IMG/VR virus record: IMGVR_UViG_3300020045_004589
Span: 1-32,663 of that record
DNA length: 32,663 nt
Origin: a virus
Lineage: Duplodnaviria; Caudoviricetes
Strand: one strand, 5' to 3'
The translations under genes were made by a program, and so were the position numbers. Position 1 is the stretch's first letter; every line of letters starts with the position of its first letter. Below, piece after piece: positions 1,037 through 11,241 of the stretch. The notes beneath the pieces are model-generated. The model did not search any database, was not told the origin of the DNA, and worked only from the letters and a program-made list of their open reading frames with translations.

Positions 1037-1399
1037 TTACTCCTTGACCTTTTTCTGAAGCTTCCAACCTTCGTGTTTTACCTGTGCCACAATATCGCAG
1101 AGACTCGCTTGTTCGGCGGCTCCTTCTCCGTTTAGAGCAATATCAAGCTCACGGATGAGGCGGCGATGGTCATCTATAACCGCCTCGTATTCTGACGCTA
1201 CCGTCATCGTGGTTCTTTTTATATAATCAGAAATGATGTCAAAAGCCTCTTTCGCATTACAATGCATGCATTTGTTTGCTTTTCTTGCTATACACGATCC
1301 CCAACCCGCCCCTATAAAATCACACTCAGCAATATAATTTACAATCGTATCCATTGCTCTCTCTACCACATCCATCGTGTTTGCCTCATTCTCACTCAT
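1037..1399 (-). CDS. hypothetical phage protein
   Basis: 120 aa ORF with ATGA overlap to the upstream DnaC-like gene. Confidence 0.75.
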   Translation of the reverse strand: MSENEANTMDVVERAMDTIVNYIAECDFIGAGWGSCIARKANKCMHCNAKEAFDIISDYIKRTTMTVASEYEAVIDDHRRLIRELDIALNGEGAAEQASLCDIVAQVKHEGWKLQKKVKE

Positions 1400-2121
1400 C
1401 TCTTCCTCCTGTAGTCTTCCCCGGTGAACCGGAGTAATACCCCGCCCTCCGAAAGCCTCGACATAATGTCTTCCCCAACATAATTCTCCAAACAGTTAGC
1501 ACACCCTTCCTTTACCGTACAATCCTTCCGTGTGTGCTTGTTCGATATCAGGATCAATGGAAGACCGCGCGTGTGCCTTTTGTCTATCACGTACGAAAGC
1601 CAATTCGCCTCCGACTCTCCCCCCTTCGTTCTCCCTATCTCGTCGATGACAAAGAGCGGATACCGCGCAAGCTCGTCAACGATCGCCAGTTCCGTCTTGC
1701 TCGCAAGTGGCGTGTATGACGCGCGGATCGTGGTTGATATCTCGTACATGGTCATTATTCGTCCGGTTAGTATCTTGAGCGCCGCGATTGCGAGGTGAGT
1801 CTTTCCCGTCCCGTTCTTTCCGGTCATGATGATTTTACCCACACGGCCGTCAACCATTGACCGGACTCGGCTCTTGTTGTGTTCAAGCTCGGGTGTATCG
1901 GTTTTGAAGTTGTCGAAGGTAACGTCGAAGTATGCGGGCTCGATATTCATTTCCCTGAGCTTCGCTATGCGGCTTCGGTCGTACTCCTCTTGTGCGTGCG
2001 CGTCGTGTTTGGCTATACGCTCCTCTGCACACACAGGACATCCGAAGTCAACCATGCGGCCTTCGAGCCCAGGTATGAGGTCATACTCTCCGTGCTGCGC
2101 GCATTTACCAGGCATCCTCAC
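1396..2121 (-). CDS. DnaC/IstB-like AAA+ helicase loader
   Basis: N-terminal CxxH...CxxC zinc motif, TFDNF, Walker A GKNGTGKT, Walker B LFVIDEIG, ISN, SRL, GEDYR; follows replication initiator. Confidence 0.92.
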   Translation of the reverse strand: MRMPGKCAQHGEYDLIPGLEGRMVDFGCPVCAEERIAKHDAHAQEEYDRSRIAKLREMNIEPAYFDVTFDNFKTDTPELEHNKSRVRSMVDGRVGKIIMTGKNGTGKTHLAIAALKILTGRIMTMYEISTTIRASYTPLASKTELAIVDELARYPLFVIDEIGRTKGGESEANWLSYVIDKRHTRGLPLILISNKHTRKDCTVKEGCANCLENYVGEDIMSRLSEGGVLLRFTGEDYRRKR

Positions 2122-2897
2122 TCCTCCAAATCAAGCATAGCCGTCTGTGTATGAACCCTAAGCGGACCACCACGATCGGCGACCGGCACCGGGTTCTCGT
2201 AATCGAGATAGTTGTTCAAGAACGTGCTCGGGTTCTTGATGAACTGGTATTCCTTCCCCGTCTTTCGGATCTCGTCCAGATAGTTTTGAAGGCAAGAGAG
2301 TATAGAGTCAGCCCCTACCCCTCGCTTCATCATTGCCACGTATGTTTTCTCTGCTTGTCCCTTAGATACTTTCTTAGGGTAGAGGGACCAAAAGTTATTG
2401 AATGAATCACTATAATCCCTTTTTGGTTTTTTCTCTTTCTTTATCTTTAACTCTGTCTTTATCTCTCTCTCTAACTCTGGTGTACTTTCGTCGTACATTT
2501 GTACGATCTGTTTTGGTTGTATCTTACTTCTGTATTCCCTTATCCTGTCAGCTTCTGTTGACGACTTGCCCATCATTCCCTGTATCTCATTCATCCATAT
2601 TTCATGACCATCAACGATGGAAATAATATCTAGTTCAACACCCAGTCGTATTGCCTCTTTAACATGCGCTATGTCATGGTTAATGACATTCGCAAGAGTA
2701 GCAACCTTTCCGGGGTCGTATGGAATGCTCGGAGTCATCATTAAGCGGCCGTCATATTTACTCGCCTTCAAGCACATTTTTAGAATAATGAGGCTATAGA
2801 TATAGCCGTTCTCTGACGATTCAAGTATTTTTATATTGTCCTTTTCAAAATAATTATCTTTCAACTTTATGTAGTAATACTTTTGGTTGTCGCTCAT
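2118..2897 (-). CDS. phage replication initiator (replisome organizer N-terminal domain)
   Basis: YYYIKLKDNYF...IKILE N-terminus, STEADRIREYR, E/K-rich linker, C-terminal FWSLYPKK...KNPSTFLN domain. Confidence 0.88.
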   Translation of the reverse strand: MSDNQKYYYIKLKDNYFEKDNIKILESSENGYIYSLIILKMCLKASKYDGRLMMTPSIPYDPGKVATLANVINHDIAHVKEAIRLGVELDIISIVDGHEIWMNEIQGMMGKSSTEADRIREYRSKIQPKQIVQMYDESTPELEREIKTELKIKKEKKPKRDYSDSFNNFWSLYPKKVSKGQAEKTYVAMMKRGVGADSILSCLQNYLDEIRKTGKEYQFIKNPSTFLNNYLDYENPVPVADRGGPLRVHTQTAMLDLEE

Positions 2898-3359
2898 TCA
2901 AAACCCCAATTCAATATCCGAAACGTCTATAAAGTCAGTGGGTTGTCTTCCCATTATCTTGTCTTTCAATTTGTTGTATTCATTCAAAGTCCCTAATTCC
3001 TTCACGGTTCCCTTATAAAGACAAACTATTCCCATGAATACGGAATACTTTTTAATAGGGTCAACGATTCCGCTATCTTTCAATGTGGCGGTTATCGCCT
3101 TGGTGGCTAAATACCACGGAAGAAACTCATGCGGATGCACTGGAATAAGGTTTATGACTTTGAAATCATCATCCAATACATAGTAACCAGAAAAATAATC
3201 GCTATTTGTTCTATCCCTGCCTGATATCAATTCATTTATTTTTTGAGAGTCATCTATTGAAAATACAATATCAATATCGCTGTCTTCTTTTGCGGTTCCG
3301 AATGCCTGAGAACCAGTCAGGAACCCTACTTCAAGAAGGCTGTCAATAAGATTGCTCAT
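2898..3359 (-). CDS. Pol-beta superfamily (minimal) nucleotidyltransferase
   Basis: GSQAFG...DSDIDI motif (hG[GS]x9-13DxD); ATG at 3359 preferred over GTG at 3368. Confidence 0.82.
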   Translation of the reverse strand: MSNLIDSLLEVGFLTGSQAFGTAKEDSDIDIVFSIDDSQKINELISGRDRTNSDYFSGYYVLDDDFKVINLIPVHPHEFLPWYLATKAITATLKDSGIVDPIKKYSVFMGIVCLYKGTVKELGTLNEYNKLKDKIMGRQPTDFIDVSDIELGF

Positions 3360-3371
3360 TCTGTCCACCCC

Positions 3372-3505
3372 AAAAAAAACGGCTTAGTAAGGGAAGAGGC
3401 GGTCAACCTCTTTCGCGCTTGCACGAGCGCGCCCTTACTAAGCCGTTCTATTCTACGTCACCCCGTGCAGGACGACAAGATACATGCCGGTTGACCATTC
3501 CGACA
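3372..3505 (-). ncRNA. structured leader/terminator RNA (three-way junction plus upstream complementary loops; c4/CI-like)
   Basis: perfect 16-bp stem 3378-3393/3432-3447 enclosing two 6-bp hairpins, followed by a U8 tract; hairpin loops are complementary to 3464-3469 and 3489-3496. Confidence 0.8.
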
Positions 3506-3511
3506 ATCACA

Positions 3512-3540
3512 ACTATACACCATAACGCCCGCCGCGTCAA
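3512..3540 (-). promoter_or_regulatory. sigma70-type promoter of replication operon
   Basis: TTGACG-17bp-TATAGT immediately upstream of the structured leader. Confidence 0.75.
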
Positions 3541-3767
3541 TCAATTATAGGAGGCGCGGGCTGTTCGTCCCCGTCTTCCCTGGACATCCAGTGGGTCACG
3601 TCGTCGATCAAGTACCCCCGCGACCCGATGAAGCAATGCCGCCCGAAGGTGGTATCCTTCATGCTTTCATACCGACCAGCGAACACGCCTAGAAGGTCGA
3701 AGTAGTACCATACTTGCGCATGGTCATCGGGCACGGTGTCGGTGATATGGTGCCATTGTCGAGTCAT
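3537..3767 (-). CDS. DUF551-like small phage protein
   Basis: N-terminal W..I.D..P and C-terminal VTHWM motif. Confidence 0.7.
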   Translation of the reverse strand: MTRQWHHITDTVPDDHAQVWYYFDLLGVFAGRYESMKDTTFGRHCFIGSRGYLIDDVTHWMSREDGDEQPAPPIID

Positions 3768-3775
3768 GTTTCCCC

Positions 3776-4018
3776 CTAATCGATTATCGCCCCGGACACC
3801 TTAACGCCCGGCACAAACTGATACCGGCTTGTCCGGTTGCTGATACACCGAAAGATCGCCCCGGATGTGTCGGCGTACCGATGCGCGGCCTTGAGCACTG
3901 AGGACGGATAGACCCGAACGCCGGTAACGAGACTAACGTGGTCGGTGAGGCCCCAGCCGGAAATGACGCAAGGGCCGAGAGTGTCCAGGTATGCCCAAGT
4001 AGCCGCGCGAATGGTCAT
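3776..4018 (-). CDS. hypothetical phage protein
   Basis: 80 aa, TAATG coupling with upstream ORF. Confidence 0.65.
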   Translation of the reverse strand: MTIRAATWAYLDTLGPCVISGWGLTDHVSLVTGVRVYPSSVLKAAHRYADTSGAIFRCISNRTSRYQFVPGVKVSGAIID

Positions 4019-4989
4019 TATGCATCAAGGCCCGCTATCTTGCGAGCTTCCTGGTATATCTTTCGATCGACCTGGATATCGACGGTTGAAGAGCGTTCCG
4101 TCATCTGTTGGGGCTCAGAAGCGACAATGTCAGCGATAAGTGCGCGCAGCTCGTCCGCCTTCCGTCGCTCGTCCGCTCGGATGGTGGCGTCATGCTCGAC
4201 CTGGATCGCGATAAGTTCGTCATCGGTCCACTTGTCATTTATGCCGTGCCAGCTTCCGGTTCCAGGTTTCCCGCCGTGCAGCCTTTCGAGGTGCTTGACA
4301 GCTATCTCCATATCCGACGCTTCCGGCTGCGGTGTGGTGATGGAGTCGACGATGAGGTCGAACTGGCGTACGAAAGAATTGTCACCATCTACATGAATGA
4401 TGTCGACCAATATTCCGCGCACTGTCTCTATCGCCTTCTCCACCTCGGCGCTCATGGGGAGGGAGGGGCGTCGCGGTATGTTTTTGTTTTCCGCAAATTC
4501 CTTTACTCGCGTTATGCATAGGTCTATAGTTGCGCACATATTGAGCACGCCATTATGATAAACCTCGGCATAGATGTATCCAGGGTGGCGCTTGCTCGTG
4601 TGTATGTTTCTGAGTTCGACGCGATCGTCAGCGTCTTGAGCGGCGGGGCGAGGCTCCCAAGCATGGCATGGATATTCTGGACCGGTGCTCGGCAGTAAAC
4701 ACTTACATTCCGGGTAGTGTTTAACGCACGTCTCGCACGTCCTATCCGTCATTGCGGCTGGCATTATGTCGTTCATAGGGACGAAACCTTCCCATGAAGG
4801 CGGTCCGCAATGTGCACAGTCTTTTCCCATTATCGAGCACTGGTTACACGGCTCTCTAGTTGTCGCGTGGCTCTTACCGTCGCACTCGTCGCCGCAGGCT
4901 AAGCCGGTGCATTGGTCGCAAGCCGTTGAAGTATGGACCTTGCCGCATACCGTGCATGCCTGCGGAACGTCGTTTATGTTTGTGCTCAT
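4018..4989 (-). CDS. Cys-rich mosaic hypothetical protein
   Basis: 323 aa with several CxxC pairs in the N-terminal third. Confidence 0.7.
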   Translation of the reverse strand: MSTNINDVPQACTVCGKVHTSTACDQCTGLACGDECDGKSHATTREPCNQCSIMGKDCAHCGPPSWEGFVPMNDIMPAAMTDRTCETCVKHYPECKCLLPSTGPEYPCHAWEPRPAAQDADDRVELRNIHTSKRHPGYIYAEVYHNGVLNMCATIDLCITRVKEFAENKNIPRRPSLPMSAEVEKAIETVRGILVDIIHVDGDNSFVRQFDLIVDSITTPQPEASDMEIAVKHLERLHGGKPGTGSWHGINDKWTDDELIAIQVEHDATIRADERRKADELRALIADIVASEPQQMTERSSTVDIQVDRKIYQEARKIAGLDA

Positions 4990-7440: not shown

Positions 7441-7448
7441 GGGTTGAC

Positions 7449-8006
7449 CTAAAACACAGGATCATCCACAAAATCATCTTGATGATCTTGTGTTTCCGCT
7501 GTTTTTTCAGGAGGAGGCAACTGTTCCGAGATCATATTTTTTACAAAGTTGGGAATAAAATCGCTAGAAGTATCAGGCTGCCAGTGAATCGATATAACGG
7601 ATTTGCCATCTTCCATGACACGCTGAGCAGGAAGAACGGAAGCAACTTTTACTTTTTCTCCCTGGGGGACAATGTTTAACTGGCAGGCTTTTGTTTTGAT
7701 TTTATCAAGATCAAAACCTTTTCGCTCTTCGTCGGTAAAAGCCTTTCCCCTCCACGAAACAAGATCAACTCCAAGAGTTGATTTATCCGAAATGCTTAAC
7801 GTATATATTTTGGTAATAGTGAAATGCTTTCCGCTTGTTTTAGAAATAGACTCTATTTCCCACAATACAACCACTTTATGGGTAGGCGGTCCACCTTGAT
7901 ACCCCTTTTGAAACCCAATGTCAAAAACGTTTATGCACAAGGCGCGAGTCATCCCAATAGGTATAGGTTCGTATTCCCCACCATTGTCCCTAGCGACTAT
8001 TCCCAT
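7449..8006 (-). CDS. putative phage single-stranded DNA-binding protein
   Basis: 185 aa, Y.P.P.G...A.C..V.D.G N-terminus, acidic tail ending DDFVDDPVF. Confidence 0.6.
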   Translation of the reverse strand: MGIVARDNGGEYEPIPIGMTRALCINVFDIGFQKGYQGGPPTHKVVVLWEIESISKTSGKHFTITKIYTLSISDKSTLGVDLVSWRGKAFTDEERKGFDLDKIKTKACQLNIVPQGEKVKVASVLPAQRVMEDGKSVISIHWQPDTSSDFIPNFVKNMISEQLPPPEKTAETQDHQDDFVDDPVF

Positions 8007-8190
8007 CTTGTCCCCCTTCCAGCTTCCTCAGTTTTTCGGCGTTCACTTCCCCGATACCGCGAATAGGCTTGCCGTGGATTGTCTGCTCCCATTGCTCAAC
8101 CGTTCGTTTGCTGACGCCGAGATTTTCGGCTAGATCGGCTTGAGTCCATCCATATTTAGCCCGTATGCGCCTTGAATCGTTTCCGTCCAT
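7990..8190 (-). CDS. XRE/Cro-type HTH regulator
   Basis: IR.K.GWTQADLAENLGVSKRTVEQWE; ATG 8190 with GGAGG RBS, downstream of promoter. Confidence 0.88.
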   Translation of the reverse strand: MDGNDSRRIRAKYGWTQADLAENLGVSKRTVEQWEQTIHGKPIRGIGEVNAEKLRKLEGGQDGNSR

Positions 8191-8208
8191 GCGTCCTCCG
8201 TTGCTGAT

Positions 8209-8237
8209 AGTGTACATCCGTCCGGCCGTCCTGTCAA
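8209..8237 (-). promoter_or_regulatory. sigma70-type promoter
   Basis: TTGACA-17bp-TACACT; spacer has a GGACGG direct repeat. Confidence 0.75.
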
Positions 8238-10194: not shown

Positions 10195-10265
10195 TCAGGG
10201 CGGAAGGGCTTGAACCTCCGATCGCGGGATCAAAACCCGCCGCCTTACCGCTTGGCTACGCCCCA
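10195..10265 (-). tRNA. trnQ: tRNA-Gln (UUG), CCA not encoded
   Basis: TGGGGCG TA GCCAAGCGGTAAGGC G GCGGG TTTTGAT CCCGC GATC GGAGG TTCAAGC CCTTC CGCCCTG A folds as a cloverleaf. Confidence 0.9.
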
Positions 10266-11149: not shown

Positions 11150-11178
11150 AAGATAGCACGCCTAAAACATCTTGTCAA
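11150..11178 (-). promoter_or_regulatory. leftward early promoter
   Basis: TTGACA-17bp-TATCTT with TGn extension and A-tract upstream. Confidence 0.75.
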
Positions 11179-11212
11179 CATATTTTTTCTTTCTTTTTAT
11201 GTTATTTTTATG

Positions 11213-11241
11213 TTGACACGGCCAGTATATGGTAGTATACT
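11213..11241 (+). promoter_or_regulatory. rightward early promoter
   Basis: TTGACA-17bp-TATACT at the strand switch. Confidence 0.85.

What the first reader, a model, noticed from the sequence alone, without database searches (positions are those of the whole stretch)
3372..3540. Double kissing-loop RNA switch fused to a terminator, gating the replication operon
Seen on the minus strand, in order: promoter TTGACG-17-TATAGT; hairpin A (GTCGG/CCGGC) exposing GGTCAACC; hairpin B exposing TGCACG; then a perfect 16-bp stem + U8 enclosing two 6-bp hairpins. The loops of those inner hairpins are CGTGCA and (GG)TTGACC, exact complements of the B and A sites. Two independent loop-loop complementarities within 130 nt are unlikely by chance. 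Known: P1/P7 C4 RNA and P4 CI RNA are branched RNAs whose loops pair with sites in their own leader to cause termination and immunity. Inference: an RNA-based immunity/attenuation switch directly controlling NTase-initiator-DnaC in a phage showing no CI gene in this window. A further GGTCAACC sits right before the NinB-like ATG (7442-7449), a possible trans target, though one 8-mer match is expected by chance.
Basis: partly seen in the sequence, partly recalled or inferred. Interest (0 to 1): 0.8.

Follow-up and report, generated by a model that had tools for sequence, protein, structure and literature searches.

The report
Two-address kissing-loop terminator switch in phages
In front of this phage's DNA-replication genes lies a folded RNA leader whose stop-signal hairpin carries two loops that match two hairpins at the RNA's own start, and related phages keep the match with different letters; it likely lets transcription run through at first and likely shuts it off as a small RNA made from a predicted internal promoter builds up, in the manner of the known C4/CI phage RNAs.

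Summary
No Rfam family matches. Related uncultured phages carry the same architecture with different loop letters. Site B and loop b' pair in 58 of 60 cells, with 19 double changes. Cognate loop/site matches beat cross matches in every one of 200,000 permutations. Close relatives swap the whole leader behind an identical promoter. New here: a predicted second promoter inside the target hairpins would make the terminator alone as a ~70-nt RNA; no downstream a2/b2-type target; two genomes carry two copies with different addresses. The NinB site is chance. No integrase, ParA, resolvase or S24 repressor in 19 records, so immunity is unproven. Best reading: a C4/CI-like attenuator in which cis kissing gives read-through and the small RNA restores termination; direction and trans action are inferred, not shown. 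The scan noted similar kissing-terminator leaders on other DNA before, none by sequence. New variant of a known kind.

The parts
3512..3540 (-). Promoter P1 (TTGACG-17-TATAGT); -35 overlaps the stop codon of the upstream 76-aa ORF
   Evidence: the promoter is identical in L002 and L003
3485..3505 (-). Hairpin A exposing site A (3496-3489)
   Evidence: covaries with a' across homologues
3457..3476 (-). Hairpin B exposing the 6-nt site B (3469-3464)
   Evidence: covaries with b'
3450..3478 (-). Predicted internal promoter P2 (TTGTCG 3478-3473, 17 nt, TAGAAT 3455-3450) flanking site B; would start RNA near 3444, at the base of the stalk
   Evidence: shuffle p 0.0025 here, and kept in most homologues; activity not tested
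3432..3447 (-). 5' arm of the terminator stalk
3414..3431 (-). Inner hairpin with loop b' (3425-3420), complement of site B
3394..3412 (-). Inner hairpin with a' (3408-3401), complement of site A; no unpaired base between it and the stalk's 3' arm
3372..3393 (-). 3' arm of the stalk (3393-3378) and U8 run (3379-3372): intrinsic terminator
   Evidence: U-rich tail in all 13 members listed
3357..3371 (-). Shine-Dalgarno-like sequence (3371-3364) and ATG (3359) directly after the U run
2898..3359 (-). First gated gene: small nucleotidyltransferase (a variable slot: relatives have ANT/KilAC, HNH, T5orf172, methylase, sigma70_r4 or the initiator itself here)
2118..2897 (-). Replication initiator (Phage_rep_org_N / replisome organizer)
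1396..2121 (-). DnaC-like helicase loader

Best explanation
This is a conserved two-address kissing-loop leader whose branched terminator likely acts as an attenuator of the replication operon: pairing of its two loops with hairpins A and B of the same transcript would block the terminator, and a ~70-nt RNA from a predicted internal promoter would bind A and B in trans and restore termination. Shown: the structure, the covarying A/a' and B/b' pairs, the conserved P2 hexamers and spacing, the lack of a second target pair, and the swapping of leaders. Inferred: (1) on a P1 transcript, B pairs with b' and A with a' before the stalk's 3' arm is made, and the short linker then prevents the stalk from closing in time, giving read-through early in infection; (2) P2 transcripts lack A and B, so they always terminate and accumulate as a stable three-way-junction RNA showing both loops; (3) this RNA occupies A and B on later P1 transcripts, frees their terminator and turns initiator/DnaC expression down, a gene-dosage-dependent negative feedback that would also act on an incoming phage only if it has the same two addresses.
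For: B-b': 96.7% of 60 cells paired, 19 cells with changes on both sides, 0 of 500 shuffles reach this, slid registers 18-48% (10 sequences). Matches of 6 bp or more: b' 11 of 16 cognate vs 6 of 240 cross; a' 9 of 14 vs 7 of 182; 0 of 200,000 permutations. Of 7 members found without using loop complementarity (L335, L338, L340, L342, L133, L273, L362), 6 have a perfect B-b' match of 6-7 bp and L335 has 5 of 6; 5 of the 6 that include A have 6-7 bp with a'. Sisters L257 and L338 share an identical stalk but differ at 5 site positions, all 5 compensated. P2: shuffle p at most 0.0025 in 11 of 14 full-length members; among the 8 found by structure alone, 6 of 8, including L003 whose hairpin B is unrelated; also present in the later member L362. 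In the window and in the members with 6-7-nt sites, the A+B pair occurs once, in the leader. The next start codon lies within about 12-45 nt of the stalk, so downstream genes depend on read-through. In the window's growing chain the nested fold pairs B-b' and A-a' until the 3' arm appears, with a 27.8 kcal/mol path barrier to the terminator. The logic matches P4 CI (PMC4825925, passage) and pT181 attenuation (PMC4878617, passages).
Against: No expression data: no start site, read-through or small RNA has been observed. At equilibrium the terminator fold is 7.5-21 kcal/mol better than any nested alternative in all 13 members, so antitermination must be kinetic or steric. The nested trap is not general: barriers are only about 4-7 kcal/mol in L131, L338, L340 and L342, where the model rests on true kissing pseudoknots that ViennaRNA cannot score. 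P2 is weak or absent in L256 and L302 (p about 0.6) and its statistic is biased for the 4 members found with a pattern holding those hexamers. Eight members were picked from 75 candidates ranked by complementarity. Several addresses are shared between members, so rows are not independent. Several close DnaC relatives show no such leader. No lysogeny genes.
Confidence: 0.58

Rival explanations
1. Cis-only throttle: the double kiss sets a fixed fraction of read-through during co-transcriptional folding, and the P2-like hexamers are inherited RNA stem sequence with no promoter function.
For: All covariation is equally explained by cis pairing. The -35-like hexamer is also the 3' arm of hairpin A in most members. 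P2 is not evident in 2 of 14. No lysogeny genes.
Against: The 17-18 nt spacing and a -10 hexamer partly outside any stem are kept even where hairpins A and B are rebuilt (window, L003, L265a). The -10 sits 4-8 nt before the stalk in all 11 members with P2. Two copies in one genome carry different addresses, as expected if cross-talk in trans is avoided, though drift could also give this.
Confidence: 0.17
2. Opposite polarity: kissing in cis is neutral or helps the terminator, and read-through comes from a protein antiterminator or from the small RNA acting as an activator, as IsrK does on its long isoform.
For: The terminator is the most stable fold of the whole P1 leader. IsrK activates in trans (PMC4825925, passage). 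An HTH gene and many unknown ORFs could supply a protein factor.
Against: The P2 RNA has only a'/b', so its only partners are A and B; occupying them can only remove the cis contact. For activation the cis contact would have to promote a terminator that already forms by itself (z -5.5).
Confidence: 0.12
3. Classical lysogenic or plasmid-prophage immunity: the small RNA is the sole repressor of a temperate phage, as CI RNA is in P4.
For: Same design as C4/CI, whose address changes define immunity groups (PMC5320573, passage); gated genes are initiators and ANT/KilAC proteins; leaders are swapped between close relatives.
Against: 0 of 19 records with PF00589, PF00239, PF13614 or PF00717; not found in the cellular genomes searched. 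This is the best explanation's mechanism plus an unsupported lifestyle claim.
Confidence: 0.12
4. Chance complementarity next to an ordinary terminator.
For: Single 6-mers are common: site B occurs 6 times on this strand of the window.
Confidence: 0.01

Closest known systems
P1/P7 C4 antisense RNA (Rfam RF01695) with the c4-a1b1 motif (Weinberg 2010, PMC2864571)
   Same: Two tandem target hairpins a few bases after a -10-like hexamer (c4-a1b1 alignment seen), followed by a three-stem RNA with two short antisense regions that vary between phages; ANT/KilAC genes often follow. A promoter close to the upstream binding site also exists in P1 (P2c4; PMC8198154 passage).
   Different: No match to RF01695 at E up to 1 in 5 records or to any Rfam family. 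Both inner hairpin loops are antisense, whereas C4's P2 ends in a tetraloop (alignment rows and figure text). No downstream a2/b2 pair over a ribosome-binding site. The stalk is itself a 13-16-bp intrinsic terminator, and a predicted promoter rather than RNase P cutting would set the 5' end. From memory, not checked: Weinberg's supplementary text mentions terminators overlapping some C4 RNAs; that file could not be read.
Satellite phage P4 CI RNA with seqA/seqC (also N15 CA RNA, Gifsy-1 IsrK)
   Same: A leader-encoded small RNA pairs with same-strand sites in its own operon leader and causes premature termination ahead of replication genes (PMC4825925 and PMC3632133, passages).
   Different: CI is processed from the primary transcript and needs seqA upstream and seqC downstream (PMC4825925); here only upstream sites exist, the terminator is the RNA's own stalk, and no integrase or lysogeny is evident. 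No isrK or C4 Rfam hit.
pT181 / pIP501 antisense attenuators of plasmid rep genes
   Same: A small RNA kisses a leader hairpin, removes an antiterminator contact and lets an intrinsic terminator form before the initiator gene (PMC4878617, passages): the same proposed logic and a dosage-sensing role.
   Different: There the RNA comes from the opposite strand and is fully complementary, with one kissing loop; here it is a same-strand piece of the leader with two 6-7-nt addresses, and the terminator's own loops are the antiterminator contact.
c4-2 motif (Weinberg 2017, PMC5737381)
   Same: Described as a likely distant homologue of a known RNA (passage).
   Different: No Rfam hit in the window or 22 related loci; the supplement describing it could not be read.

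Membership tests
C4 antisense RNA (RF01695) | Scores against the Rfam covariance model | tested here: not met
   (E up to 10 on 500 nt)
C4 antisense RNA (RF01695) | Three-stem junction with two short antisense regions a' and b' | tested here: met
C4 antisense RNA (RF01695) | P2 capped by a stable tetraloop, not an antisense loop | tested here: not met
   P2 loop is the 6-nt b' in 9 of 13 members and antisense in most others; C4 form
C4 antisense RNA (RF01695) | Upstream a1/b1 sites in two tandem hairpins just after the promoter | tested here: met
   against the c4-a1b1 alignment (architecture only; no sequence model was run)
C4 antisense RNA (RF01695) | Downstream a2/b2 target pair controlling icd-ant | tested here: not met
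   no A+B pair within 400 nt downstream in members with 6-7-nt sites; uninformative for L302 and L265b, whose automatic sites were 3-4 nt
C4 antisense RNA (RF01695) | 5' end made by RNase P | not testable with these tools
   no RNA reads; a predicted promoter sits where the cut would be
P4 CI RNA immunity | Small RNA pairs with seqA upstream and seqC downstream | tested here: not met
   upstream sites only
P4 CI RNA immunity | RNA-dependent premature termination before replication genes | tested here: inconclusive
   terminator and gene order shown; dependence on the RNA not testable
P4 CI RNA immunity | Temperate element with integrase or plasmid state | tested here: inconclusive
   0 of 19 records with integrase, resolvase, ParA or S24; a plasmid or carrier state without these genes is not excluded
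pT181/pIP501 antisense attenuator | Counter-transcript from the opposite strand, fully complementary to the leader | tested here: not met
   no + strand promoter-like site near the leader (nearest 2757-2786 and 4502-4530); complementarity is same-strand

The most novel reading that the evidence does not exclude
A lineage of phages without integrase or cleavable repressor runs its replication and some later operons on interchangeable RNA cassettes that use a combinatorial two-address code. The terminator is at once the gate, the antiterminator contact and, when made alone from a nested promoter, the repressor. The circuit would count genome copies and tell self from non-self with no protein, and antitermination would be steric (two kissing loops holding the stalk open) rather than by an alternative helix.
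Probability: 0.25. Interest if true: 0.82.

Novelty: new variant of a known kind. Interest (0 to 1): 0.62.

Why it matters
It is the most compact form of the C4/CI design seen here, in about 135 nt. In C4 the job of the upstream a1/b1 sites is, to my recollection, unresolved; a family that has only those sites, with the terminator fused on, makes that question directly testable in a purified transcription assay. The natural series of matched address pairs is a ready panel for testing orthogonality; such orthogonal attenuators were hard to engineer from pT181 (PMC4878617, passage). It also suggests RNA-only control of replication in phages that show no lysogeny genes.

Tried and rejected
Rfam on the window and on 22 related loci: only tRNAs and one hammerhead. 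blastn of 3300-3800 against annotated phages: no match. A pattern of the window's two loops over viral contigs was too loose (about 3,200 stretches) and its loci were not used. A promoter pattern gave 6 hits, of which 2 were the known relatives and 4 unrelated. The hairpin-B pattern gave 10 hits: 4 new members, 3 repeats of known RNAs, 3 chance hits without terminator; a second pattern gave 0. Cellular genomes: pattern 0 of 5 and 0 of 401; model 1 weak hit in 38, a different structure. Model R1 used an imperfect RNAalifold structure and missed G001 although it scored that leader, so its blanks are weak. NinB site as trans target: rejected. A general nested antiterminator helix: not found. In one search, L264's stem boundary was mis-set (scored 2 instead of 6) and L130 has a rearranged layout; both rows were kept. 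L001 (one antisense loop plus a junction strand), L163 and L266 were left out of the matrices; L362 was found afterwards. Sequencing runs: no RNA holder listed. Variants inside the leader of one partial relative in run X1 were not seen and stay open. Literature: four searches for a published kissing-loop terminator of this kind in phages returned nothing fitting; the library lacks most subscription papers, Sabbattini 1995 was not held, and in PMC10690425 six supplement files held no match while three were not searched, so an uncharacterised catalogue entry is not excluded.

Full report
Observation. The window is a whole 32.7-kb virus record (CheckV 89%) with P22-like portal, coat and tail-accessory genes. 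The element lies on the minus strand between a 76-aa ORF and the genes for a nucleotidyltransferase, a replication initiator and a DnaC-like loader. Two corrections: the 16-bp stem shares two bases with the U8 run, and only 6 of the 8 A/a' pairs are loop-to-loop. Both matches together arose in 6 of 100,000 shuffles of the leader. The terminator folds far better than shuffles; hairpins A and B alone do not. Rfam gives nothing at the gathering score or at E up to 10, and RF01695 gives nothing in 5 records.

Relatives. Two close relatives (L002, L003) share the upstream gene and the exact promoter, and L003 also the nucleotidyltransferase, but between them lies a leader of unrelated sequence with the same layout. 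A contig in run X1 likewise replaces 3362-3510 with 140 other letters (it may be the same type as L003, so it is not independent). Loci anchored on DnaC were scanned with a structure descriptor: 75 candidates, of which the top ones share the geometry, with site B 15-29 nt and site A 38-52 nt before the stalk. A pattern with N at the loop and a covariance model without pseudoknots added members that were not chosen for complementarity. In all there are 14 distinct full-length cassettes counting the window, 2 truncated ones, and 2 variants (L001, L130). The nearest DnaC hits in cellular genomes are short contigs of a Spirochaetales and a Gammaproteobacteria bin, then mostly Treponema and Clostridia; a spirochaete host is a weak guess.

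Covariation. On a 10-sequence alignment not fitted to the pseudoknot, B-b' is paired in 58 of 60 cells, with 19 cells changed on both sides; no shuffle of 500 reaches this and slid registers give 18-48%. Cognate against cross matches of at least 6 bp: 11 of 16 against 6 of 240 for b', 9 of 14 against 7 of 182 for a'; 0 of 200,000 permutations. Eight rows were selected by complementarity, so the 7 members found otherwise are the fair test: 6 have perfect B-b' pairing and one has 5 of 6; 5 of 6 have 6-7 bp A-a'. L257 and L338 have the same stalk and five site changes, each compensated. Addresses recombine: one A address goes with three different B addresses (L131, L335, L362), and three B addresses each go with two A addresses. 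Records G450 and G453 each hold two copies with different addresses, one before the initiator region and one further downstream before a methylase or T5orf172 gene.

Internal promoter. A sigma70-like promoter straddles site B: TTGTCG-17-TAGAAT in the window, mostly TTGAC(A/G)-17/18-GATAAT elsewhere, ending 4-8 nt before the stalk. It scores p at most 0.0025 in 11 of 14 full-length rows; among the 8 found by structure alone, 6. It fails in L256 and L302. It would yield the three-way junction alone, which lacks A and B and folds into the terminator. Its activity is inferred from consensus and conservation only.

Targets. In the window the A+B pair occurs once, in the leader; no second pair lies downstream in members with 6-7-nt sites. 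The site before NinB lacks a B partner and is absent before the 93%-identical NinB of G001.

Mechanism. The next start codon follows the stalk within about 12-45 nt, so the gated genes need read-through (inference). At equilibrium the terminator wins by 7.5-21 kcal/mol over nested alternatives. In the window a nested B-b'/A-a' fold dominates until the 3' arm appears and is a deep kinetic trap, but in four members it is not (barriers about 4-7 kcal/mol). The conserved form is therefore a true double kiss, which the folding tools cannot score. The a' hairpin joins the stalk's 3' arm with no unpaired base in 12 of 13 members, which favours coaxial stacking; with A kissed on top of it, the short linker after B could not reach the base of a closed stalk. 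This is a geometric inference, not a computed model. A P2 RNA has no such tether and could bind A and B of another transcript, freeing its terminator. I put this cis-on, trans-off reading at 0.58; a cis-only throttle, the opposite polarity and true lysogenic immunity share most of the rest.

Lifestyle. No tyrosine integrase, serine recombinase, ParA or S24 peptidase in 19 records, 6 of them at least 90% complete (controls rang in 9-14 of 14). Not found in the cellular genomes searched. Immunity is therefore unproven; timing or copy control of replication fits as well. The element is patchy: one search found it in 10 of 15 records, most of which were chosen for having it, and in 2 of the 7 that are at least 90% complete (missing G001, which has it).

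Comparison. The c4-a1b1 alignment shows two tandem hairpins just after a -10-like hexamer (PMC2864571, supplement file 5 part 65), the same layout as A and B. C4 is a three-stem RNA cut by RNase P whose loops bind targets near a ribosome-binding site (PMC5320573, passages). P4 CI pairs with seqA and seqC to cause termination (PMC4825925 and PMC3632133, passages). P1 has a promoter, P2c4, near the C4 binding site (PMC8198154, passages), so a nested promoter has a precedent. pT181 attenuation has the same on/off logic with an opposite-strand RNA (PMC4878617, passages). The element works like these but fails the model score, the tetraloop and the downstream-target tests, so I do not file it as a C4 or CI member. 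The supplementary text of PMC2864571 (old .doc) and the supplement of PMC5737381 could not be read, nor three files of PMC10690425; they may describe terminator-fused C4 forms or list this motif.

Earlier scan notes. Thirteen notes on other genomes hold the words searched; the 8 shown describe kissing-loop terminator leaders, mostly with one loop. None matched by sequence, place or the double-kiss wording. I did not check them; my reading was set before the look-up. Independently, four distant DnaC-linked phages here show a one-loop version with covarying loops, so the design appears to be a recurring class.

Verdict. Real, conserved and uncatalogued in Rfam; a new variant of the C4/CI kind; function inferred. 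Interest 0.62.

Noticed in passing
L139 600-775, L140 1470-1640, L142 3100-3300, L143 3300-3468: One-loop version in distant DnaC-linked phages: promoter, a hairpin whose loop matches the loop of a simple terminator (three different 8-9-nt addresses), and a middle hairpin.
   Followed up: partly
L001 2340-2510; L308 3710-3823: Variants with one inner antisense hairpin and the second contact, if any, in a junction strand, closer to the C4 layout.
   Followed up: partly
L139 2540-2687, L140 4416-4573, L141 5315-5467, L142 4624-4752: A second conserved structured leader directly before the initiator gene in these phages.
   Followed up: no
L003 1790-1865: A 13-nt direct repeat between hairpin A's 3' side and the stalk's 5' arm, which offers an alternative partner for the stalk's 3' arm.
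   Followed up: partly
L131 74-140 (-): Type II hammerhead ribozyme above the Rfam cut-off.
   Followed up: no
window 11150-11241: Back-to-back near-consensus promoters (11178-11150 on -, 11213-11241 on +) opening a short + strand cluster of unknown ORFs, with no PHROG hits.
   Followed up: partly
window 7990-8237 (-): Small HTH_3 gene with its own strong promoter (8237-8209); the likely start is an ATG near 8190.
   Followed up: partly
window 10195-10265 (-): tRNA gene with a UUG anticodon loop.
   Followed up: no
window 2898-3359 (-): Stand-alone small nucleotidyltransferase as first gated gene; the slot holds nucleases, ANT/KilAC proteins or a methylase in relatives.
   Followed up: partly
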